DNA of 64,000 nucleotides from Octopus sinensis (GCF_006345805.1 NC_042999.1:77066001-77130000), one strand, 5' to 3'; shown: positions 1,203-41,430, counted from the stretch's first letter. Program-made: numbers and translations. The notes: a model not told the origin generated them from the sequence alone.

Positions 1203-1239
1203 TGCGCAAACATGTGCAGTCCCGAACAGGTCTATTCGC

Positions 1240-2350
1240 AACAACACCCACCTTATGCGATACATCATAGAGAGAAACGGTTTCGATAGGGCTCTGATCA
1301 ATTTGGATCAAACCAAAGCAATCTTTAGGTTCAACCATCGCTACTTGGAAACCGTCCCGAAAGTGGTTGGTTTCGGCTCCGTTTTCCGCGGTTGGACCGC
1401 TGCAATGCACAGTGGCACCTACTCGGTGGTCAGAGTAAACAGCCATCTGTCAGAATCGTTTCGTATCGCATGCTCGGTCCTTCAGTGCAGCCTACTGTCG
1501 CCTCTTCTATACGTAGTGGTTCTCAAACCACTGCTGCGGAAATTAGAACAGTTGAAGGGTATCCCTTTCGAACTGGGACACGAGGGGGCAGTGTCAGACA
1601 ATGCCACCGGCATGGCATCGGACGCCTCTAAAGGAATATGAGTCGGTTGCAAGAGCTAATGCCAACACTGACAAGTCGGTGGGCTTGCGGCTGGGCACTT
1701 GGAGGGGCAGGTTGATGCCATCAGACGGCGTCGTCGGACACTGGACTGACGGCCCAGTGAAACTGCTCGGGGTTTGGTTTCGTTCCGACTTCCAGGTAGA
1801 TAAGAACTGGGACGAGGTGACGAACAGACTAACCACTCTTACCCAGAAATAGGATAAAAGGAAGCTATTCCTGAAAGGTGGGACATAGGTAGCAAATACC
1901 TATATTGCATCCGTCATCAACTATCGCCTGACCGTCGTGCTCTGCCTTGGTTACTCTTTCATCAGGTTGGAGCATCTCTTATTTAATTTCTTGTGGAAGG
2001 ATCTACTACAATGGTCAGACGGTCAGTCTGCTGCCAGCACCCTCTGAGTAGCGGCTTAAGCATGCCGTGACTTCTGATGCGCAGACACGCGCTCAGGTTG
2101 TGCTACCTGCAATAATTTCTGGACGGTGAGTATGTTTGGGCTATGTTTGAGAGAACGTCTTTCTGCAGCTCGTCTCCTTGATGGAGCTGCAGTCCTAGGA
2201 GAAGAAAAGACCGGTACTGGGTGCCTGGTACCTAGAATGTCGTCAGGTGTTCACAGCCCTCTTCCTGTCAGGCAATGGGATCGGTGAACATTCCGCTTTC
2301 ATAATCTGTAGAGGATTAGTTGCGGGAAATTGTGTCGATGTTCTAGGGTT
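1240..2350 (+). mobile_element. Degraded Tx1-like non-LTR retrotransposon RT fragment
   Basis: Peptides LDQTKAIFR, SLLSPLLYVVVLKPLLRKL and DKSVGLRLGTWRG..VVGHWTDGPVKLLGVWF are closely similar to the element at 12185-14224; multiple stops and frameshifts. Confidence 0.8.
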
Positions 2351-3306: not shown

Positions 3307-3320
3307 ATATAATATATATA

Positions 3321-5687: not shown

Positions 5688-6272
5688 TGTATGCATTGTT
5701 GTTGTTTTGTAACCCCAGGTCAGTATAGACCGAGTGAAACCTATAGAAATTAATCGAAGAACTCAATGGGATCCACGGGTCAGTTGTCTAGTAGAAGATA
5801 TTGTCTGTTCATTCATAAAATGCTTTATCCTTTAGGGTGCTATCAAATTACCCGGGGTGTAGCGTTCACCTTTTATCTGTTTTCTTTTACTTGTTTCAGT
5901 CATTTAGGCGAATGAATTGAGCCTAGTATTTTTTCCGTAAGCCTGGCACTTATTCCGAACCGCTAGATATGGGGACACACCAACACCAGTTATCAAGCGG
6001 CAGTGGAGGATAAGCACAGACGCAAACACACACACATACACACACATATTTGTATATATATATATATATATATATATTGGCCTGCTCGCTTAGCCAGCGG
6101 GGTAGCATCATTTGAAGCGCATTGTGACCAGCGATGTGTAGCAACATCTGATAGCCTGATCGATCACGGTGATCACAGTGATATATATATATACATACAT
6201 ATACATAGAAATATCATTATTTCTAAATTTCTAATTCTCTCTAAAGGAGACTACGGCAGCGGTACTGAATAT

Positions 6273-6600
6273 TAATAGTTACCGCTAAGTGGTAGTCCAG
6301 AAAAACAGGACGAATGATGAGGTTGATTAGCTCCAAGAGGCCATCACCTCTAGCTAGCTGTGTGACACACAAACTGAGTCCATTATAACCTTATAGCAGG
6401 GGAGGTTAGCAGGTTCCCCTTGCTGGTCTGGCAACCACAGACTAGTTTCGAGGTGGTTGCCTCTTATCAATGTGGAGTAGCCGAACCCAACAGGCGTCGC
6501 TGCAGACCGACAAACTAGAGGCGATGGCCTCTTCGAGCTAATCAACGGCAGCATTCGTTTATTTTTCTGAACTGCCATGTTAGCTTAGCGATAACTATTA
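6273..6600 (-). mobile_element. Fold-back Penelope-pLTR/retrozyme-like repeat, diverged relative of the 355-bp unit at 11371-14875
   Basis: Imperfect inverted arms ~6273-6353 / ~6516-6600 (gttgattagctccaagaggccatcacctctag vs ctagaggcgatggcctcttcgagctaatcaac); colinear similarity to 11371-11610. Confidence 0.7.
6435..6475 (-). ncRNA. Minimal type-I hammerhead ribozyme motif (U3-A8 core variant)
   Basis: Minus strand: ccaca TTGATAA gagg caacca cctc GAAA ctag TC tgtgg. Confidence 0.7.
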
Positions 6601-6819
6601 ACATATATATATATTATGCACGTACGCTGCGAAATATATAATAAACCTTTACGTAAATAAATAACGTGATATACACGAAGGGACGAACAAAAAGACAAAC
6701 GGGTTATTCAAAGCCTTCATTCTTCAGTCAGAAACTGATCCCTCATCGCAGATTTCGGCTGTTTAATTCTGAGATCCGCTCTGAATCAGCCAGCCACTAT
6801 CCAACATTGGTGTCTCTGG

Positions 6820-8013
6820 AAAGTTACTGAAATGGATCAAGTGTTTCCTGACAGACAGATCTCAACATGTTGTAGTTGAAGGGATAAAATCAAGCCCAGC
6901 CAAAGTCAGTAGTGGCGTTCCGCAAGGCACTGTGCTGGGCCCACTTCTTTTCATCATCTACATTAATGACATTAATGACATCATCAAGCACAGCAACATA
7001 AAAATCTTTGCAGATGATTCCAAGCTCCAGAAGGTCATAAATGAGGCGAGTGACCGGACATGCCTTCAGTCAGATCTACTGGCTGTTATCCAATGGGCAG
7101 AAAAAAACAATATGCTGCTGAACGAGGATAAATTTGAGTTAATCCACTTTGGAAAAGAGGATGCCCTGAAACTCCCATACTCCCTTCCTTCAGGTGAAAC
7201 TCTCGTGGCATCCAACAACATCAGAGACTTGGGAGTAATTGTGGACAACATAAGCTGGGCCACTCATATAAAAACCAAAGTTGACATGGCCCGCAGAATG
7301 TGTTCCTGGATTCTCAGAACTTTCCAGTCGAGAGATATCCACACCATTATCTTTCTCTTCTCCACTTTTGCCCGACACCACCTTGAATACTGTTGTCCAC
7401 TGTGGTCTCCCCACACAAAACAAAGTATCATAAAAGTTGAAGCACCTCAAAGGGCAATCACAAAAAAGATAGATGGCATGACAGGCCTCGACTATTGGGG
7501 TCGACTAGAAAAGCTAAAACTTTATTCTCTCCAACGTCGCCGTGAGCGCTGCATCATCTGCATGATGTGGAAAATATTCCATCAGCATTGCCCAAATGAT
7601 GTTGGCATCACCTTTAAGGTACATCCAAGGCTTGGGCCCCGTGCCATCCGCCCAAAACAAAAATCGCACTCTCATCTCATAACAACAATACGACACAATT
7701 ATTTCACCTCAATTGGCCCCGCTCTCTTTAACATTACACCAAAACACATTAAAACAGAAACAGACCCAATAGGGTTCAAGAAGTCTTTGGACAGATTCCT
7801 TCAAGAAATCCCGGATAAATCCCCTACACCCGGATATGTCTCTGTAAACAATAACTCTCTACTTGAGTGGGCCATAGTGCCCAAATTCTGACTTGAAAGA
7901 CTTCACCAGGTGGTGCTATTAAGTTAGACATGGCCTGGGCCAATAATGGCCAAAACCTTTCTAAGTTATTCTAAGTTATACTGGCCAAAACCTTTCTAAG
8001 TTATTCTAAGTTA
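6820..8013 (+). mobile_element. 5'-truncated CR1/L2-group LINE (RT C-terminal half, ORF 6932-7891)
   Basis: GVPQGTVLGPLLFIIYIND, FADDSKL, RDLGVIVD, HLEYCCPLWSP, LYSLQRRRER; 3' tail tggccaaaacctttctaagttattctaagttata tandemly duplicated at 7948-8014. Confidence 0.9.
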
Positions 8014-10649: not shown

Positions 10650-11098
10650 TCCTAGTTTCAGCTCAGAGCTGCGGCCATACTGATGCACCGCCGTCTTGTG
10701 CTACACTGTTATTACGACGAACCTCGTCTAATATGTGGCACTTGGTGAAGAATGGAGTTTGATATAGCTACTCTCATTTGCACCTCCTGCCGTGAGGTAG
10801 GTTCATCTGGGACTCTTGACAGGAAGATGTCCAGCTTTGATTTAAAAACCGCTACATCCACTTTGTGCAAGTTCCTCAGACTCTTTGAGAGAATATTAAA
10901 AAGCTGTGGGCCCTTGAAACCCAGGCTGTTGCAGAAGCTGGTCCTGAAGCGTGATGGCATTGCTAGGATCTTTGGTACTATGCAGTGTCGTCCCTTCTAG
11001 CATTGGTGTAGCTTACAATGCCAACATTTGGCACAATTCCTTCCAGGATCTTCCAGACATATATTACTGCATACCTCTCCCGTCTTCTCTCCAGCCTT
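10650..11098 (-). mobile_element. 3' fragment of CR1-group LINE
   Basis: SLERRRERY, GFKGPQLFNIL, FKSKLDIFLSRVPDEP and the 3' tail gctctgagctgaaactag; same family as 14925-15680. Confidence 0.85.
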
Positions 11099-11370
11099 AC
11101 ATATATATATATATATAATATATATATATATAATATATATTATTTTTATTTATTATTTATATTTATTTAATTATATATATATATATATTTATTTAATTAT
11201 ATATATATATATATATAATATATATATATATTTAATTATATATATATATTTATTTAATTAATTATATATAATATATATATATTTATTTAATTAATATATA
11301 TATATATATAATTAATTTATTTATTTAATTATATATATATATATTTATTTATTTATTATATATATATATA

Positions 11371-12184
11371 ATAGTTATCGCCATACTAATATGGCATTCT
11401 TATAAAAATAAGAATAAAGCTGTCCGCTTATTAGCTCCATGAGGCCATCGCCTTAAGTTAGCTATTTGATACACAAACTGTATCCATATAACCTTTGAAC
11501 AAGGGAGGTCAGTCGCTCCACACTACTTGGCCGGCAGCTACAGACGCGTTTCGGGGTATTGCCCCTTTTCAATGCAGCGTAGCCATACCAGTAGGTGTCG
11601 CTTCTGACGATCTCTGTTCAAAGGTTTTATTTACCTAGCTTCGGTGGAATACATCCACTTGTTTTCAATAATAGAAATATTAAAATTACTAAAAAGGGGC
11701 AATACCCCGAAACGCGTCTGTAGCTGCCGGCCAAGTAGTGTGGAGCGACTGACCTCCCTTGTTCAAAGGTTATATGGATACAGTTTGTGTATCAAATAGC
11801 TAACTTAAGGCGATGGCCTCATGGAGCTAATAAGCGGACAGCTTTATTCTTATTTTTATAAGAATGCCATACCCCGAAACGCGTCTGTAGCTGCCGGCCA
11901 AGTAGTAGTGTTCAAAGGTTATATGGATACAGTTTGTGTATCAAATAGCTAACTTAAGGCGATGGCCTCATGGAGCTAATAAGCGGACAGCTTTATTCTT
12001 ATTTTTATAAGAATGCCATATTAGTATGGCGATAACTATTATTTTCCGGGAACGCTGCCGTTGTTCTCTTTTAGAGAGACTTAGTAATTTTAATATTTCT
12101 ATTATTGAAAACAAGTGGATGTATTCCACCGAAGCTAGGTAAATAAAACCTTTGAACAGAGATCGTCAGAAGCGACACCTACTG
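11371..12184. repeat. Inverted plus direct copies of a ~355-bp hammerhead-containing unit (Penelope pLTR/retrozyme-like)
   Basis: 11371-11690 is an inverted copy (hammerhead motif on the minus strand at 11537-11578), followed by forward partial copies from 11691 and 11870 running to 12184. Confidence 0.85.
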
Positions 12185-14224
12185 TGTTAGCAGAAAGGTT
12201 GAAGGTCGTCATGGAAAAACTTGTCGGAAAGGCACAGACATGTGCAATCCCAGGCAGGTCGATCGAAGATAATCTTCACCTTCTACGCTACACTATAGAC
12301 AGGGTTGGGCAATTAGCCGGCAAAGGAGGGGCATTGGTCCATTTAGACCAAAGTAAAGCATTTGATAGGGTAGATCATCAGTACTTGGCGACGGTTCTCG
12401 AAGCGGCTGGGCTAGGTCCTGACTTTCGCGGGTGGATATCAGCTATGTACAGCGGTATCAAGTCCACAGTCCAGATAAACGGTTACTTAACGGAACCGTT
12501 TTCGATTAAGCGTTCAGTTCGTCAAGGATGTCCCTTGTCCCCTCTCCTGTACGTTTTGGCTCTTGAGCCATTGCTGCGAAGTTGGAGACGGTGAGATGCA
12601 ATCCTAATGAAATCGGATGCGGTAAGTCTGTTTCTGCGTATGCGGATGACGTCACCTTCATCGTGTCCAACGAAGCACAACTAACTCGTGTAGAAGGTGC
12701 TCTCCGAAGATACGAAGCGGTGGCTGGGGCAAAAGTTAACAAGGACAAGTCCACTGGTTTGCGCCTCGGCACCTGGAGGAACAAGCCGATATCGTCCAGT
12801 GTTGTTGGACACTGGACAGATGGTCCTGTTAAATTGCTTGGAGTTTGGTTTGGTTCAGACTCCCAGACGGAGAAAAATTGGAGCGAGGTAGTGACCAAGG
12901 TAGAAGCCATAGCTCGGGAGTGGTCCGGAAGGCATCTTTCCTTGAAAGGGAGGGCGGAGGTGGTACAGGTGTTTATAGCATCTGTAATCACCTATCGCCT
13001 GACTGTCGTGCCTTGCCCCGATTTGTGGCTAAGCAAGTTGGATCGACTCCTTTTCCGCTTTTTGTGGAAGGGAGGAAAGCCACTTGTAAGGCGCTCCGTG
13101 TGTTGCCAGGAACCACTAAAGGGTGGGCTGGGGATGCCTTGGTTAATGATGCGCAGGCATGCGCTGAGACTGAGACATCTCTGGTTTCACCTGGAAGGTG
13201 ATAAGGTGTGGAGTCCGCTGGCAGATAATTTCTTCCCGCAACCGGACTCTATGGAGAGATTTAAACCCGGTTTCATTAAAAGACGGAACCTGACTTTATG
13301 GCAGAAAGAGTGCCGACAGGCACTCTGGCTGATCCACAAGATAGGCAAAGCCGGTTGCGGGAATACCACCTCGACATTTTATAGAAGGATGGTAGAGGCA
13401 AAAAATGACGACGTCCTAAGGGGCTCTGGGGTTCGATGAGGATCAACTATCCGACCTGTTTAAGAAGACTTTCAAGCGGGGTATTTGGACAATTACCAAA
13501 AATCCCTGACTTGGCAGTGCTATAGGAATGCTCTACCTGTTCGCGATAAGTTATATAGGCATGGAATGTCAGTGCCACCGACATGTCCAAGATGTGGGTT
13601 GGACGATGAAACCGTCCAGCACGCTTTTGTACATTGTCAGGAGCTGTCAGGCTTAATAAGTTACGTAGAACACGTGTTGTCGCATCTGGGACGAGTACAG
13701 CTATCGGCTGGTTCTATAATAAAGATGATACCGCCAGCTGGACTCTCAAAGGAAGGTGAGGCTTGTTTTCACTGTACGGTGGCAGTACTGAAAGAGTGTG
13801 TGTGGAGAACTAGATTGGAAGGTTTGGTGTCAGGAACCTTTGTCTCTGGATATGGTATGTTAAAATACTTCAGATACCATCTAAAGAGCAAGATGGATTT
13901 AGAGTAGAGGACCTGACACAGAAAAAGTATGTGAATCGATGGAAGGATGTGATAAAAAAGGTGGGTGTGAGTAACCCTGCTTGGTCATCATGAAGGGAGA
14001 AAATAGTCTCTGGGCTCTTAGGCTGTCGGGTAAGAATCCTGACTGTGATATACCTAGCTGGCCAAAATCATTTTTAATTTTTTAAAAAAAAAGGAGAAAG
14101 TAAAGTCTAGTATCATAATCAATAATCAACATGTAAATATCAAACGAACAACGTAAACTTTTTGTAATTATGTTTTGTATTGTAATGTACTATTTCTGTA
14201 AATTTTTATAATCATAATTATTTT
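12185..14224 (+). mobile_element. 5'-truncated Tx1-like (L1-group) LINE with 17-bp target-site duplication
   Basis: RT motifs AIPGRSIEDNL, LDQSKAFDRVDH, SVRQGCPLSPLLY, AYADD; C-terminal CPRC..ETVQHAFVHC knuckle; frameshifts near 12590 and 13430; TSD agaagcgacacctactg at 12168-12184 and 14225-14241. Confidence 0.9.
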
Positions 14225-14251
14225 AGAAGCGACACCTACTGGTCTGGCTAC

Positions 14252-14293
14252 GCTGCATTGAAAAGGGGCAATACCCCGAAACGCGTCTGTAGC
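14252..14293 (+). ncRNA. Minimal type-I hammerhead ribozyme motif (U3-A8 variant), predicted cleavage after 14287
   Basis: gctgca TTGAAAA gggg caata cccc GAAA cgcg TC tgtagc. Confidence 0.7.
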
Positions 14294-14606
14294 TGCCGGC
14301 CAAGTAGTGTGGAGCGACTGACCTCCCTTTTCAAGGTTATATGGATACAGTTTGTGTATCAAATAGCTAACTTAAGGCGATGGCCTCATGGAGCTAATAG
14401 CGGACAGCTTTATTCTTATTTTTATAAGAATGCCATATTAGTATGGCGATAACTATATTTTCCGGGAACGCTGCCGTGTTCTCTTTAAGAGACTTAGTAA
14501 TTTTAATATTTCTATTATTGAAAACAAGTGGATGTATTCCACCGACGCTAGGTAATAAAACCTTTGAACAGAGATCGTCAGAAGCGACACCTACTGGTCT
14601 GGCTAC

Positions 14607-14648
14607 GCTGCATTGAAAAGGGGCAATACCCCGAAACGCGTCTGTAGC
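14607..14648 (+). ncRNA. Minimal type-I hammerhead ribozyme motif (U3-A8 variant), predicted cleavage after 14642
   Basis: Identical motif to 14252-14293. Confidence 0.7.
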
Positions 14649-14924
14649 TGCCGGCCAAGTAGTGTGGAGCGACTGACCTCCCTTGTTCAAAGATTATATG
14701 GATACAGTTTGTGTATCAAATAGCTAACTTAAGGCGATGGCCTCATGGAGCTATAAGCGGACAGCTTTATTCTTATTTTTATAAGAATGCCATATTAGTA
14801 TGGCGATAACTATTTTTCCGGGAACGCTGCCGTTGTCTCTTTTAGAGAGACTTAGTAATTTTAATATTTCTATTATATATATATATATTTATAATATATT
14901 TATTATATATATATATACATATAT

Positions 14925-15680
14925 GTTGATGATTGATTGATTCTAGTTTCAGCTCATGAGCTGTGGCCATGTTGGGGCCGCCATTTGGTGTTGCTACATG
15001 GTTTTACTTCACGAAGCTTTTAGCAACTGCCATTTGGTGCATGAGAGAGTTCGATGCAGCTGCCCTCATCTGCACCTCCTGCCGTGAAGTTGGTTCATCT
15101 GGGATACCTGACAGGAAGAGATCCAGTTTCATTTTAAAGACATCTGCATCCACCCCATGCAGGTCTCTTAAGTTCTTCGGGAGGATATTGAAGAGCTGTG
15201 GGCCTCGGAAGCCCAGGCTATCACAGTATCTTGTCCTACATCTTGATCGCAAATTTGGAGTCCTAGGCACCACGCAGTGGCGCCCAGTTCTGGCATTTGT
15301 GTAACTCTCGATGCCAAAGTTTGGGACAAGTCCCTCCAGGATCTTCCAGATGTATATTATGGCATATCTTTCCCGCCTACGCTACAAGGAATATAGTTTT
15401 AATCTCTTGAGTCTTTCCCAGTAGCTTATATTCTGCATAGAGGCTATCTTCTTCGTGTAGCTACGTTGGATCGCCTCAAGTTCTGTGATCAACTTGACAC
15501 TGGATGGTGACCATAACTGAGAGCAATAGTCAAAGTGGCTTAGGATAAGTGTCCTCCAGAGGACCATCATGGTTTCTTGTTCTCTTGTTCTAAAGGTTCT
15601 GAGAATCCATCCGGCCAGTCGTCTACATTTCATTGCCAATTTAGCAACATGTACACGAAAGGTACCTCTCAGGTAGAACC
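14925..15680 (-). mobile_element. 3' part of CR1-group LINE
   Basis: GWILRTF, HFDYCSQLWSP, SYWERLKRLKLYSL, GFRGPQLFNILP; tail gagctgaaactagaatcaatcaatc. Confidence 0.85.
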
Positions 15681-18203: not shown

Positions 18204-20918
18204 TTTGCTATTGGCAATATGAATGACAATGGCCAGAGACTACTTGAATTTTGCACATACCATAACCTGTGCATCACTAACACATTATTTGCCAACAAGA
18301 CATCCCACAAGGCATCTTGGAGACATCCAAGATCTCACCACTGTCAGCTGGATCTCATCATTATACGAAGACCCTTTCTGAATTCTTTTCAACTGACTCG
18401 TAGTTACCACAGCGCGGATTGTGACACAGATCATTCACTAATAAGAAGCAGGGTGAGGATTCTGCCTAAAAAGTTCATCACTCCAAGAAAATGGGCCGAC
18501 CACACATTAACACTGCCAGAACCTCCGACCCTACACTGCGACAATGTTTTGCTGTTTCTATCAAAGTTGCCCTCAGTAGCTGCCCAACCACCTCTGCTGA
18601 AAGTAGGTGGAATTATATCGGGAAAGCTTTGTATACCACATCAATAGATACTTTCGGCATGAGAGAAAGGCAAAACCCAGATTTTGTTCAGTGCTGGGCT
18701 CTCAAAGCTGGAAACAGTCATCGAAGCAAAGCGTGCATCTCTGATGTAATACAAGAGTGATTCTTCTATAAAGTCACTCGAAGAACTCAGAAAGGCAAGA
18801 AATAAAACCCAACTGACTGCCAGACGCTGTGCAAATAGGTATTGGCAGGAAATCTGTCAGAATATCCAATCAGCTGCTGACAGTGGCGACACCCGTGGGA
18901 TGTATGCCGGTTTGAAGAAGGCTCTCGGTCCATCCGCAACTAAGTCAGCCCCTCTGAAATCAACTACTGGGGATCTCATCAAGGACCAAAGCAAGCAAAT
19001 GGATAGATGAGTGGAGTACTACCAGGATCTCTACTCACGAGAGACCACGGTAGCTGAGGCTGCAATCGAGGGTGTCAAGATCTTGCCAGTCATGTGTGAA
19101 CTTGACAGTCTGCCATCTATAACAGAGCTCACCAAGGCTATTGACTCCCTAGCAAGTAACAAAGCTCCGGGAAAAGACGGCATCCCTTTAGAGATCATCA
19201 AAACCGGCAAAAACACCATCCTGCTTCGGCACATTCATGAGCTTCTGTGTCAGTGTTGGGAAGAGGGTACAGTCCCTCAGGATATGCGGGATGCTAACAT
19301 CATTACGCTTTACAAAAACAAAGGTGACCGTGGTGATTGTAACAATTACCGTGGAATATCTCTTCTAAGCACTGTTGGAAAGGCCTCTGCTCGCATTATC
19401 CTGTCCAGGTTGCAACTGCTTGCTTCTCGAATTTATCCAGAATCACAGTGTGGCTTTAGAAGAAGCAGATAAACTATTGACATGATATTCTCCATACGCC
19501 AACTTCAGGAGAAGTCCAGAGAGCAGAAAATACCATTGGCCTTCATTGATCTGACAAAGGCCTTTGACTTGGTAAGTAGAAAAGGCCTCTTCATCCTGCT
19601 CCAAAAATCGGAAGTCCACCAAAGCTGCTGAGGATCATCACATCTTTCCATGATGATATGCAAGGCACCATACAGCACAATGGTTCAACATCAGCCGCCT
19701 TCCAAATAAAAAATGGGGTAAAGCAAGGTTGCGTCCTTGCTCCTACATTATCTGGCATCTTCTTCTCGCTGCTGCTGTCACATGCATTTGTAACATCAGA
19801 TGATGGAGTGTTTCTGCACAGTAGAAGTGATGGGAAACTGTTCAATCTCTCGCGTCTGCGTGCCAAGACCAAAATCAGAAGCGTCCTGATCAAGGAGATG
19901 CTATTTGCTGATGATGCCGCTCTGGTATCACACTCAGAAGAAGGCTCATCAACTGTTTTGAGCAAGTATGTGACAACTTTGGCTTATTTATCAGCCTCAA
20001 GTAGACCAACATCATAGGTCAGGCTACATCGACCATCCCAAACATACATATTGGAGACCACAGACTACAGGAGGTGGAGAAGTTTACCTATCTTGGCTCT
20101 ACTGTCACCTACAACCTATCCCTTGATACTGAGCTCAATATACGCATTGGCAAGGCAGCTGCTGTGATGGCCCAACTCTCCAAACGGGCATGGGACAACA
20201 ATAAGCTGACCAAGACCACGAAAATGAAGATTTACCAGGCATGTGTACTTAGCACTCTACTGTATGGAAGTGAGACTTGGACGCCATACACACGCCATAC
20301 GACGCCATACGTCGCCTAAATATTTTTCACCAGCGCTGCCTTCGGAAAATCCTTCGCATCAAATGGCAGAATCATGTCCCCAACAAAGATGTCCTCAAGC
20401 AAGCAGGAATACCAAGCATGTTTACACTCCTCACACAAAGACGTATGAGATGGCTTCGACATGTTAGCCGTATGGAAGATGGCAGAATCCCCAATGACAT
20501 ACTCAACGGAGAGCTTGTTAGGGTCACTAGGTCTGTGGGAAGACCGTTCTTACGATACAAGGATGTTTACAAAAGGGACATGAATGCCTGCAACATCAAT
20601 ATTACCAACTGGGAAGCAGTTGCCATCAACCGTGGAGATTGGCGACGTACCGTAAAAAAAGGGAACACAAAGGAGTGACATAGAGGGAGAGGAGAAATGG
20701 AAAGACAAGAAAAGACGTCAACAAGAAAGTATGACATTACAACCAGCCAGGCAAAGTCTTCGCTACATTTGTGGCACCTGCCAGAGGGAGTGCTTGTCCA
20801 GGTTAGGACTACACAGCCACAGCAGGAGATGTATTAGGACATGAAATGTAAAAGCCGGACTAGATTATTTTATGCGCAACTCCATTGTCTCCCGAGACAA
20901 AAAGGATGCCACCAACAA
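18204..20918 (+). mobile_element. 5'-truncated RTE-clade LINE with ~70-bp target-site duplication
   Basis: APE C-terminus ([18 protein letters not shown]), RT (KAPGKDGIP, NYRGISLL, GVKQGCVLAPTL, LFADDAAL), RTE-type 3' end ccattgtctcccgagacaaaaaggatgcc; flanking duplicate 18133-18203 / 20924-20991. Confidence 0.9.
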
Positions 20919-37790: not shown

Positions 37791-37840
37791 TTTATTTAAC
37801 ATGTTTCGGTTCTTGAAATGACGAACCTTATCAAAAAAAA
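37791..37840 (-). ncRNA. Candidate minimal hammerhead ribozyme motif (U3-A8 variant)
   Basis: Minus strand: tttttt TTGATAA ggttc gtcatttcaa gaacc GAAA catg TT aaataaa; stem I is weak. Confidence 0.45.
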
Positions 37841-38828: not shown

Positions 38829-39910
38829 AAAGCAATTAAGGATATGAAGACAAGGAAATTACCTGGCCCATCAGGTATCACCGCTGAGATGCTTAAAATA
38901 TTGGGCGGTGTGTTTTATGGTCTTGTCTCCCGCATCGTAAATCAGGTAGTTCATGAAGGAGTCATACCCAATGACTGTTGCAGTAGCACAATAGTCAACT
39001 GCTACAAAGGTAACGGTGATGCTTTAGATAGAAATAACTACAGGGGTATTACATTATTGGATCAGGTGATGAAAGTTACAGAGAGGGTCATAGCCCAACT
39101 AATTAGGGAGAGAGTTAGTCTAGATGAGATGCAGTCTGGTTTCGTGCCAGGCAGAAGCACCACTGATGTCATATTTCTGGTACGGCAACTGCAGGAGAAA
39201 TATCTAGCCAAAGATAAACCTCTGTACGTGGCTTTTGTTGATTTGGAGAAAGCCTTTGACAGGGTCCTCCGATCCTTTATCTGGTGGTCAGTTCGGAAAC
39301 TGGTGATAGACGAGTTGTTGGTAAGAGCTGTAGAAGCCCTGTACAGAGATGCTGTCAGTAAAGTGAGGATTGGCAACGAGTATAGTGAAGAATTACGGGT
39401 TCACCAAGGATAAGTCCTCAGCCCCATCTTATTCATTATAGTCCTCCAGGCAATAACGGAGGAATTCAAGACAGGCTGCTCTTGGAGCGCCTCTATGCTG
39501 ATGACCTTACTCTAAAGGACGAGTCACTGCCAGAACTAGAAACGAAGTTTAGAGTGTGGAAGCAAGGTCTAGAATCGAAGGGTCTTAGGGTTAACCTAGC
39601 AAAAACCAAAGTCTTAATAAGTAAGAAGGCTGTCAAATCACAACCTCCTTCAGGTAGATGACCCTGCTCGATCTGTAGAAAAGGCGTAAGTAGAAACTCC
39701 ATACGAATACCAGGTGTAAGCTATGGACACATAAAAGGCGCAGCAATATCAAAAGAATGTTAACCAGGAAGATAGGAAGATAGTTTTTGTGTGTGGCAGA
39801 TGCACAGGGGTAATAAACACTGAAGATGTACAGAAAACAGATTCCATCATATGCCAGGGAGAAAAACTACAAGTAGTTAATAGCTTCTACTACCTAGGCA
39901 ACCAAGACAG
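38829..39910 (+). mobile_element. RTE-clade LINE RT fragment, truncated by a CR1/L2 insertion
   Basis: PGPSGITAEMLK, NYRGITLL, GFVPGRSTTD, FVDLEKAFDRV, LYADDL. Confidence 0.85.
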
Positions 39911-41430
39911 TGGTTAAGGATGGTCATTCAGAGGATTTAAAAGGAATTATTTTTCACCAGCTCTCTATTTTCTTCCAGTACTGTCTCAACAATGGTGCTA
40001 CTCCGGAACAGTGGAAAACTGCCAGTGTCATTCCTCTGTTCAAAAAGGGCGACCGCACATCACCTGTCAACTATCGCCCAGTCAGTCTCACTAGCTGTAT
40101 TGCAAAACTGATGGAATCGTGTGTCAGAGAAACACTTTGGAACTTCTGGAGCTCACACAGTCTCATCCGACCCTCACAATATGGATTTGTCCCTAACTCC
40201 AACTGCAGTGATCAGCTTGTCGAGTTCCTTGAGGACATTACTCAGATCACTGACAGTGGCTCATGGGTGGATGTTGTCTACCTTGACTTTGCTAAGGCTT
40301 TCAACTCTGTGCCACACAAAAGGCTTATGGTGAAACTCTCTGCAATGGGTGTGAGGGATGACCTTTTTAACTGGTTGAAATCCTTCATTCTCAACCGAAA
40401 GGAAGTAGTCACAGTTCTAGGACAGCATTCTACACCATATGAGATGTCATCGGGTGTACCACAGGGATCTGTCCTTGGTCCCCTCTTGTTTGTGGCATAC
40501 ATTAATGACATAGATGCAAATTTAAAGAATGCCACAGTATTAAAATATGCAGACGACATCAAGCTGTACCTTGAAATCAAGAGGACAGATCCTGTTGTCT
40601 ACAGCTCTTTCCTGCAATCAGACCTGGACACAATGCAGCAATGGATCACAGACTGGCAACTGAAACTGGCTGTGGACAAGTGTACCACCATGCATTTTGG
40701 GAGAAAAAACCCTGCGTCCACATACTCCCTCCACAACACTGATATCAAGAAATCCTTATGCGAGCGTGACCTAGGCATCACTGTCAGCAGTGATTAGCGC
40801 TGGACAAAGCATATCTCTAAAATTGTCAAGAAGTCGAGGGTGTCTTGGCATCAATCAGCAAGACTTTTGTTAGCCGCTCTCCAGCCATCTATTTAAAACT
40901 GTATACAGCTATGGTACGACCACACTTGGAATTCGCATCATCAGTTTGGAACCCCTATCTTGCTCAGAACATTGACCTCCTGGAATCGGTTCAGAGACGT
41001 GCAACCAAACGCATACCCTCCATCAGACACCTACCATATTCTGAGCGCCTTGTTTCCCTGGGCATGGATTCACTGAAGCTCCGGCGTCTGGCGACGGACT
41101 TGGTAAACGCCCACAAAGTTGTCAACCACCTCACCAATAACAACACTGAACACCTTTTTGATCTCCATGTGTCTAACACACGTGGACATGCCTACAAAGT
41201 CAGAAAACAACACAGCTCCCATGACTTTCGGAAACATTTCTTCACGCTCAGAGTTGCTGAAGCATGGAATAAACTGCCTGCATCAGTTGTTGACTGCCAT
41301 GACACTGCATCCTTTAAGGCCCTCATGCTTTCCGAAATCCGTCGAAACTACACCTGATTATATATGCACTTTAGATGAGTTGTAGTGCACCTGAGCACTG
41401 TACACAATGTTTATTATTATTATTATTATT
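39911..41430 (+). mobile_element. 5'-truncated CR1/L2-group LINE with (TTA)n tail
   Basis: WKTASVIPLFKKG, NYRPVSLTS, YLDFAKAF, GVPQGSVLGPLLF, KYADDIKL, VRPHLEFASSVWNP, FFTLRVAEAWNKLP. Confidence 0.9.

What the first reader, a model, noticed from the sequence alone, without database searches (positions are those of the whole stretch)
11371..14875. 355-bp tandem repeat carrying hammerhead ribozymes with a compensatory U3-A8 core: candidate retrozyme/Penelope-pLTR circRNA system
Seen: gctgca-TTGAAAA-gggg caata cccc-GAAA-cgcg-TC-tgtagc occurs intact at 14252-14293 and 14607-14648 (+, period 355 bp) and at 11537-11578 (-), plus two 5'-truncated copies near 11691 and 11870. It folds as a minimal type-I hammerhead: 6-bp stem I extended by ctggc/gccgg, 4-bp stem II, palindromic ACGCGT stem III, GUC triplet. 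Established: the hammerhead core CUGANGA needs a tertiary Watson-Crick pair between positions 3 and 8. Here C3-G8 is replaced by U3-A8, a pair-preserving swap that CUGANGA pattern searches miss. Minimal hammerheads with palindromic stem III in Penelope-like pLTRs and metazoan non-LTR retrozymes cleave as dimers from tandem transcripts and can yield circular RNAs. Inference: read-through transcription would release a 355-nt monomer (14288-14642) able to circularise, i.e. a viroid-sized non-coding replicon family in this genome.
Basis: partly seen in the sequence, partly recalled or inferred. Interest (0 to 1): 0.8.

Follow-up and report, generated by a model that had tools for sequence, protein, structure and literature searches.

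The report
LINE targeting hammerhead repeats' start sites
The repeat carries a hammerhead ribozyme motif of a known variant, but inside it sits a LINE jumping gene whose copies insert at one fixed base just upstream of that motif, while its relatives sit at the first base of U1 snRNA genes and beside four other hammerhead repeats, so this lineage likely homes in on snRNA-type transcription start sites rather than on one DNA sequence.

Summary
The hammerhead is real: 1,148 exact cores genome-wide and covarying stems. It belongs to a ~363-bp retrozyme family with Penelope-style insertion ends. The U3-A8 core and retrozymes are already published (PMC4209133, PMC7229834).

It is site-specific: 32 of 37 exact LINE 3' ends in the genome abut this site. 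Older sisters sit at U1 snRNA +1. In a more diverged lineage, 23 of 34 loci abut four other hammerhead repeats whose target sequences do not resemble each other.

All these targets have an ATCAGTG-like box 57-67 nt upstream, the box found upstream of U1, U2 and U5 genes. Likely mechanism (inferred): the retrozymes use an snRNA-type promoter; the LINE inserts at the start site, borrows the promoter, and its target-derived RNA ends help it re-find the same target. Cleavage, start sites and tethering are untested.

The parts
11371..11692 (-). Inverted arm of the retrozyme array; outer end about 169 nt after the cut site (first Penelope-type end)
11537..11578 (-). Intact U3-A8 minimal hammerhead motif
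11644..11662 (-). PSE-like box of the inverted arm (with its palindromic twin)
11692..12184 (+). Two partial units (5'-truncated hammerheads near 11692 and 11866) running up to the LINE insertion site
12111..12124 (+). PSE-like box, 57 nt upstream of the LINE insertion site; predicted promoter element
   Evidence: top score in 300 nt with a matrix trained on U1/U2/U5 upstream boxes only
12168..12184 (+). 5' copy of the 17-bp target-site duplication; predicted transcription start within its first 1-3 nt
12185..14224 (+). 5'-truncated L1/Tx1-type LINE (from about nt 3,308 of 5,359): RT C-terminal half, zf-RVT, 3' UTR with AATAAA-type end and no poly(A); frameshifted
14225..14241 (+). 3' copy of the 17-bp target-site duplication
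14252..14293 (+). U3-A8 hammerhead motif; predicted cut after 14287
14288..14642 (+). Predicted 355-nt monomer between two cut sites; folds at -118 kcal/mol, z -5.6
14524..14537 (+). PSE-like box in front of the empty target site at 14580
14607..14648 (+). U3-A8 hammerhead motif; predicted cut after 14642
14643..14876 (+). Terminal partial unit ending about 231 nt after the cut site (second Penelope-type end), followed by (TA)n
11101..11370 (.). (TA)n tract into which the array is inserted (other half 14874-14924)
6225..6616 (-). Copy of the older related retrozyme family (71-79% identical), two-armed, hammerhead at 6434-6476 with covarying stems

Best explanation
This is a non-coding hammerhead repeat (retrozyme), likely spread by Penelope proteins, that holds a site-specifically inserted L1/Tx1-type LINE whose lineage likely targets snRNA-type transcription start sites. 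Shown: the repeat family, its two fixed ends in (TA)n, the fixed LINE insertion base with a 17-bp duplication, sister LINEs at U1 +1 and beside four other hammerhead repeats, and a U1/U2/U5-like box 57-67 nt upstream of each target. Inferred steps: (1) the box is a proximal sequence element that starts transcription about 60 nt before the hammerhead cut; (2) tandem transcripts self-cleave as dimers, may circularise, and are reverse-transcribed by a Penelope RT from two internal sites; (3) the LINE endonuclease is brought to, or finds open DNA at, such start sites and nicks 0-9 nt from +1; (4) the duplication leaves promoter plus a short target head in front of the LINE, so full-length copies are transcribed from the borrowed promoter and read through into the downstream duplication, where the hammerhead would trim the RNA 63 nt later; (5) these target-derived ends anneal to the nicked DNA, giving uniform junctions and fidelity to the donor's own target, with rare switches among promoter-bearing repeats.
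For: Site specificity: 32 of 37 exact 3' ends genome-wide; 40 of 41 resident copies in 31 independent loci; 0 of 88 sites filled in 25 loci chosen by the repeat. Independent insertions: window copy truncated yet with the full 17-bp duplication; a 69-bp copy with a ~10-bp duplication; two LINE-duplication-LINE tandems; several tail variants; LINE haplotypes shared across repeat subfamilies while the two flanks agree with each other. U1: Rfam U1 starts directly after a sister's 3' end; another sister copy in the cluster is preceded by a LINE-type tail plus the first 17 nt of U1; one full-length copy away from U1 carries those 17 nt as a 5' head. Second lineage: 23 of 34 distinct loci abut hammerhead repeats of four families, both halves of the target visible in 4. 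Close relatives hit different families; the window's family nests inside the U1-type clade, UFBoot 99-100. Target sites share 4-12 of 29 nt. Endonucleases of a U1-type and a retrozyme-type copy are nearly identical. ATCAGTG at -57 to -59 in 3 of 3 U1, 2 of 2 U2, 11 of 12 U5; the matrix's top hit lies at -57 to -67 in 5 of 5 families and 0 of 7 off-target sites, against 10-17 of 300 shuffles per family. Off-target copies mostly begin with their clade's target letters.
Against: No start site, cleavage or protein contact was measured. The box was first seen by eye; the matrix rests on three gene types; a 36-nt matrix recovers only 3 of 5 families and a U5-only 14-nt matrix 4 of 5; in the window's family 22 of 300 shuffles reach the score somewhere. 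The box is also the 5' arm of a hairpin in the repeats, so it may be kept for RNA structure. At least three of the five families share end motifs and are not independent. No LINE at 12 U5 or 12 U6 loci, nor at +1 of the 2 U2 genes seen. One array has 5 of 5 sites filled, with LINEs in both arms, and several older copies lack the upstream target half, which fits co-mobilisation. Haplotypes look mosaic, possibly from assembly polishing. No Penelope element with matching terminal repeats was found in 50 loci.
Confidence: 0.55

Rival explanations
1. Hammerhead-driven selection and hitch-hiking: LINEs insert with loose preference, and copies that land just 5' of a hammerhead are amplified because the ribozyme defines their RNA 3' end or because the Penelope machinery copies LINE plus repeat together. 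The upstream box is incidental.
For: All non-U1 targets have a hammerhead core 10-33 nt downstream, same strand. The 5-of-5 array and two 2-of-2 arrays. 36 of 41 copies full-length against 1 of 6 off-target. Older copies without upstream halves. Two unchecked earlier notes describe Tx1 at Penelope hammerhead ends in another genome.
Against: U1 has no hammerhead yet is hit at +1 with the same 17-bp duplication. Truncated copies carry their own duplications at the same base. Most arrays have LINE-free junctions upstream or in the inverted arm. Array arms in the sampled loci are mostly under 1.5 kb, so copying a 5.4-kb insert whole in 36 of 41 cases is unlikely.
Confidence: 0.25
2. Ordinary Tx1 sequence specificity: each subfamily's endonuclease recognises its own DNA target, and the targets were acquired one by one.
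For: Tx1 elements are known for sequence-specific targets, including other transposons, U2 and microsatellites (PMC4494074, passages and section 15). Off-target sites of the U1-type clade resemble the U1 start.
Against: Near-identical endonucleases use targets sharing 8 of 29 nt; relatives within about 10% hit three families; it does not explain the fixed spacing to the box.
Confidence: 0.15
3. The LINE-repeat junction is one ancient chimera (a hammerhead-bearing 3' UTR) or an assembly artefact.
For: The assembly has many indels; only 1 of 38 long copies keeps both frames nearly whole.
Against: Both halves of the target flank the LINE with duplications; 31 loci have distinct flanks; contigs of four public runs show the empty-site joint.
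Confidence: 0.05

Closest known systems
Metazoan non-LTR retrozymes (PMC7229834, passages read; bioRxiv 10.64898/2026.07.22.740005, part 1 of 5 read)
   Same: Tandem ~170-400-nt non-coding units with one type-I hammerhead each, low GC, dispersed multimers, proposed Penelope origin.
   Different: U3-A8 core throughout three related families; clear two-site ends with inverted arms; an snRNA-like box; a resident site-specific LINE. Circular RNA not shown here.
Penelope-like element min-HHRs and two-site 'tail' priming (PMC4209133, parts 1-2 of 4 read; PMC11167929, passages read)
   Same: U3-A8 covariation already reported; palindromic stem III; two adjacent reverse-transcription starts; AT-rich targets.
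   Different: No ORF; the two ends are about 62 nt apart; no cognate autonomous partner identified.
Target-specific Tx1 LINEs: Tx1L, Keno, Tx1-Mar, Kibi, Koshi (PMC4494074, passages and section 15; PMC4640811, passages)
   Same: Zinc-knuckle ORF1, APE-RT ORF2, 11-17-bp duplications, tandem copies sandwiching a duplication, multicopy repeat targets.
   Different: Targets are U1 +1 and hammerhead repeats; PMC4640811 (2015) lists only Keno and Utopia (U2), Dada-U1 and Dada-U6 as snRNA-targeting. Targets share a position relative to a promoter-like box, not a sequence.
Newt satellite 2 (cited in PMC2220036, passage read; the primary paper was not held)
   Same: Hammerhead tandem repeat with an snRNA-type Pol II promoter.
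   Different: No resident LINE known to me (recalled); promoter activity here is predicted only.
R2 in 28S rDNA (PMC3774820, abstract) and R1Bm/SART1 (PMC7265360, passages)
   Same: Transcription from the target's promoter; target-derived RNA ends anneal to the target and give uniform junctions.
   Different: The ribozyme belongs to the target, not the LINE, lies 3' of it, and is a hammerhead; the target is itself mobile.
Dictyostelium TRE5-A and yeast Ty3 (recalled; no paper read)
   Same: Position-specific insertion near small-RNA gene starts by tethering to transcription factors.
   Different: Those use Pol III factor TFIIIB; here the candidate is the Pol II snRNA promoter complex, untested.

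Membership tests
Hammerhead ribozyme, minimal type I | Core with 3-8 Watson-Crick pair, GAA, NUH triplet | tested here: met
   U3/A8, GAAA and GU invariant in 25 of 25 variants (the pattern used to collect them fixed most core letters); core 0.41% vs rest 1.55% mismatches in the young family
Hammerhead ribozyme, minimal type I | Covarying stems I and II, palindromic stem III | tested here: met
   double changes in 3 of 6, 2 of 4 and 1 of 3 pairs
Hammerhead ribozyme, minimal type I | Self-cleavage as dimer | not testable with these tools
   PMC4209133 reports low in vitro activity for minimal motifs
Non-LTR retrozyme | Tandem 170-400-bp non-coding units, one hammerhead each, dispersed | tested here: met
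Non-LTR retrozyme | Monomeric linear and circular RNA | tested here: inconclusive
   only contigs of runs guessed to be RNA; the joint across the cut site is also genomic
Penelope-mobilised element | Two fixed 3' ends, inverted arm, AT-rich target | tested here: met
   41 of 44 ends; 17 of 19 two-armed arrays have one end of each kind; 39 of 44 in TA runs
Penelope-mobilised element | Autonomous partner with matching terminal repeat | tested here: inconclusive
   RT+GIY-YIG elements with U3-A8 cores exist but none of 50 loci matches the unit as a terminal repeat; 150 of 5,029 candidates were scored
Tx1 clade LINE | CCHC ORF1 and APE-RT-zf-RVT ORF2 | tested here: met
   nearest solved relative is human L1 ORF2p
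Tx1 clade LINE | Target specificity (over 20% of flanks one repeat, PMC4494074) with duplications | tested here: met
   32 of 37
Tx1 clade LINE | RT phylogeny with named Tx1 and L1 references | not tested
   no named references returned; the best-E outside relative sits inside U2 like Keno, a hint only
snRNA-type promoter | Proximal element at the snRNA spacing | tested here: met
   with the caveats given in the Against line
snRNA-type promoter | Transcription start at that spacing; SNAPc binding | not testable with these tools
   no raw RNA reads offered

The most novel reading that the evidence does not exclude
A LINE lineage that finds its targets through the Pol II snRNA promoter machinery: it inserts at the start site of U1 genes and of hammerhead retrozymes that carry snRNA-type promoters, steals the promoter, uses the target's ribozyme to end its RNA, and keeps a heritable target memory in its RNA ends, so it can change target with almost no protein change.
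Probability: 0.4. Interest if true: 0.85.

Novelty: new variant of a known kind. Interest (0 to 1): 0.7.

Why it matters
Site-specific LINEs are sought as gene-insertion tools, and how they change target is an open question. Here target switches are caught within one genome, between sequences with no likeness and with a nearly unchanged endonuclease, which makes promoter tethering and RNA-end annealing directly testable. It also points to how animal retrozymes are transcribed, and shows a three-level dependence: LINE on retrozyme on Penelope. The hammerhead finding alone would be ordinary.

Tried and rejected
Rfam found no hammerhead in 9-17 kb or beside the second lineage. Penelope partner: not found among 50 GIY-YIG loci. 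A pattern for further truncated on-target copies gave 17 hits, 16 of them empty-unit variants and one the window. LINE-versus-flank congruence was not decisive; haplotypes are mosaic. Expression: no RNA holder listed; contigs of two runs guessed to be RNA cover the unit but cannot show start, cut or circle. Outside relatives: 80 metagenome loci, mostly 23-34% identical; 0 of 19 with a 3' flank had a hammerhead motif and 2 of 20 scanned held U2. The contig look-up for the 40%-identical relatives was closed, so their flanks are unknown. Phage search empty. Prior art: search for retrozyme + LINE + inserted + Tx1 gave 0 papers; searches listed none describing this target; a 2026 cephalopod repeat annotation (PMC13282606, word search; taxon chosen on a guess) has no 'hammerhead' or 'retrozyme'. 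Subscription papers, Repbase entries and supplements (for example the Tx1 target figures of PMC4494074) were not seen and may list such families.

Full report
Observation. The exact 30-nt core occurs 1,148 times in the 2.72-Gb animal genome G000, the reversed control 0 times. The window holds an older relative at 6225-6616. Across 25 distinct variants of three related families, 96.6% of cells pair and 44 change on both sides, including the stem III palindrome; 0 of 500 shuffles reach these two values, although two other measures are not exceptional. In the young family the core shows 7 mismatches in 1,698 positions, stems 36 in 3,413 and the rest 742 in 47,863. U3-A8 is published (PMC4209133, parts 1-2 read) and is also the core in several Penelope families of this genome.

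The repeat. Units are about 363 bp, 95-97% identical (40 of 1,130 candidates scored). In 25 non-overlapping loci, 41 of 44 outward ends fall at about 169 or 231 nt after the cut site, 17 of 19 two-armed arrays have one of each, and 39 of 44 ends meet a TA run. This matches two-site internal priming and AT-rich targets described for a Penelope element (PMC11167929, passages). The monomer folds stably (z -5.6). It is a non-LTR retrozyme of known kind (PMC7229834). No cognate autonomous element was found in 50 loci.

The LINE. Bases 12185-14224 encode the C-terminal part of an APE-RT-zf-RVT ORF2, flanked by a 17-bp duplication at 12168-12184 and 14225-14241. Full-length copies are 5.36 kb with a zinc-knuckle ORF1. 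Of the 30 best 3' matches, 29 end at the same base. The exact 3' end occurs 37 times; all 37 were inspected, 32 abut this site, one abuts U1 and four lie at AT-rich or U1-like words. Of 47 copies recovered, 41 are repeat-resident: 40 have the 3' junction at the site, 36 are full-length with one identical 5' junction, two are truncated with their own duplications, one has a deletion and two run into gaps. They lie in 32 loci, two of which share a flank. In loci chosen by the repeat, 0 of 88 sites are filled. One array has 5 of 5 sites filled, which independent insertion at uniform rate does not explain.

Other targets. The six other copies are older by diagnostic sites or identity. One ends directly before a full U1 gene; a second in that cluster follows a LINE-type tail plus the first 17 nt of U1, and a full-length copy elsewhere carries those 17 nt as a head. 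The endonuclease of that copy differs from the resident one at 13 of about 230 residues. A lineage 57-68% identical in ORF2 was found beside the older repeat family. A query ending before the flank gave 40 scored hits; 39 stretches were fetched, six are copies of one locus, leaving 34. Of these 23 abut hammerhead repeats of four families (6, 6, 9, 2): 15 by motif pattern and 8 by eye as decayed cores or duplication plus next LINE; a model built from the first two families finds 11. Ten have other flanks and one had no recognisable tail. Two of the four families have the canonical C3-G8 core. A tree of 43 3' ends (536 columns, midpoint root) mixes three targets within close clades and nests the window's family in the U1-type clade. 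Target sites share 4-12 of 29 nt.

The shared feature. ATCAGTG lies at -57 to -59 of 3 of 3 U1, 2 of 2 U2 and 11 of 12 U5 genes. A 14-nt matrix from these genes alone gives its top hit, within 150-363 nt upstream of the insertion base, at -57 (window family), -62 to -67 (5 of 5 copies), -58, -67 and -61/-63 (2 of 2), and not in that slot at 7 of 7 off-target sites. In shuffles the top hit falls there 10-17 times in 300 per family. Against: the box was first seen by eye, longer or U5-only matrices recover 3-4 of 5, the families are partly related, the box is also a hairpin arm, and 0 of 12 U5 and 0 of 12 U6 loci hold such a LINE. A hammerhead repeat with an snRNA promoter is known in newts (cited in PMC2220036).

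Mechanism. I read the box as a proximal sequence element, the insertion base as 0-9 nt from the start site, and the LINE as a promoter borrower whose target-derived RNA ends anneal to the nicked target, as proposed for R2 and R1/SART1 (PMC3774820 abstract; PMC7265360 passages). In this window the box at 12111 would drive the truncated LINE into the first hammerhead, and only that read-through could release the 14288-14642 monomer. These steps are inferred. The main rival is selection or co-mobilisation through the hammerhead; two unchecked earlier notes on another genome fit either reading and were not tested.

Verdict. Hammerhead and retrozyme: real, known kind. LINE targeting of U1 +1 and of several hammerhead repeats: shown in this genome and not found in the searches. 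Promoter-guided targeting: plausible, untested. Interest 0.7.

Noticed in passing
window 37798-37834 (-): 3' end of a Penelope element with its own U3-A8 minimal hammerhead motif, same type as in intact RT+GIY-YIG copies L218 and L229.
   Followed up: partly
L117:937-1130 and 7430-7623: A full-length LINE with a 17-nt U1 head lies between two inverted U2 genes, not at their start sites.
   Followed up: partly
L075-L077, L120 (G000:C3:72.50-72.53 Mb): Two-armed array in which five of five repeat sites hold a full-length LINE; either copying of a LINE-containing multimer or a local hot spot.
   Followed up: partly
L336:5815-5977 and L331:4675-4885: Distant relatives in metagenome contigs lie next to U2 sequence; L336 joins by poly(A) inside U2, as Keno does.
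   Followed up: partly
L220:1470-1550: Another short repeat upstream of a Penelope ORF shares a word with the first end of the unit and may hold a further hammerhead-like motif on the minus strand.
   Followed up: no
window 10736-11093 and 15028-15386: Two 72-79% identical fragments of another repeat flank the array on both sides.
   Followed up: no
window 1204-2142, 19095-19732, 38856-40467: Further decayed LINE RT fragments; the first is 38-56% identical to this ORF2.
   Followed up: no
L088 and L070/L119: Two assembly records share a 5' flank but hold one versus two tandem LINE copies; possible allelic difference or misassembly.
   Followed up: no
L325-L328 (G000:C1:141.9 Mb): Tandem U6 array with a TAAGTG-like box and TATA upstream rather than ATCAGTG.
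   Followed up: no
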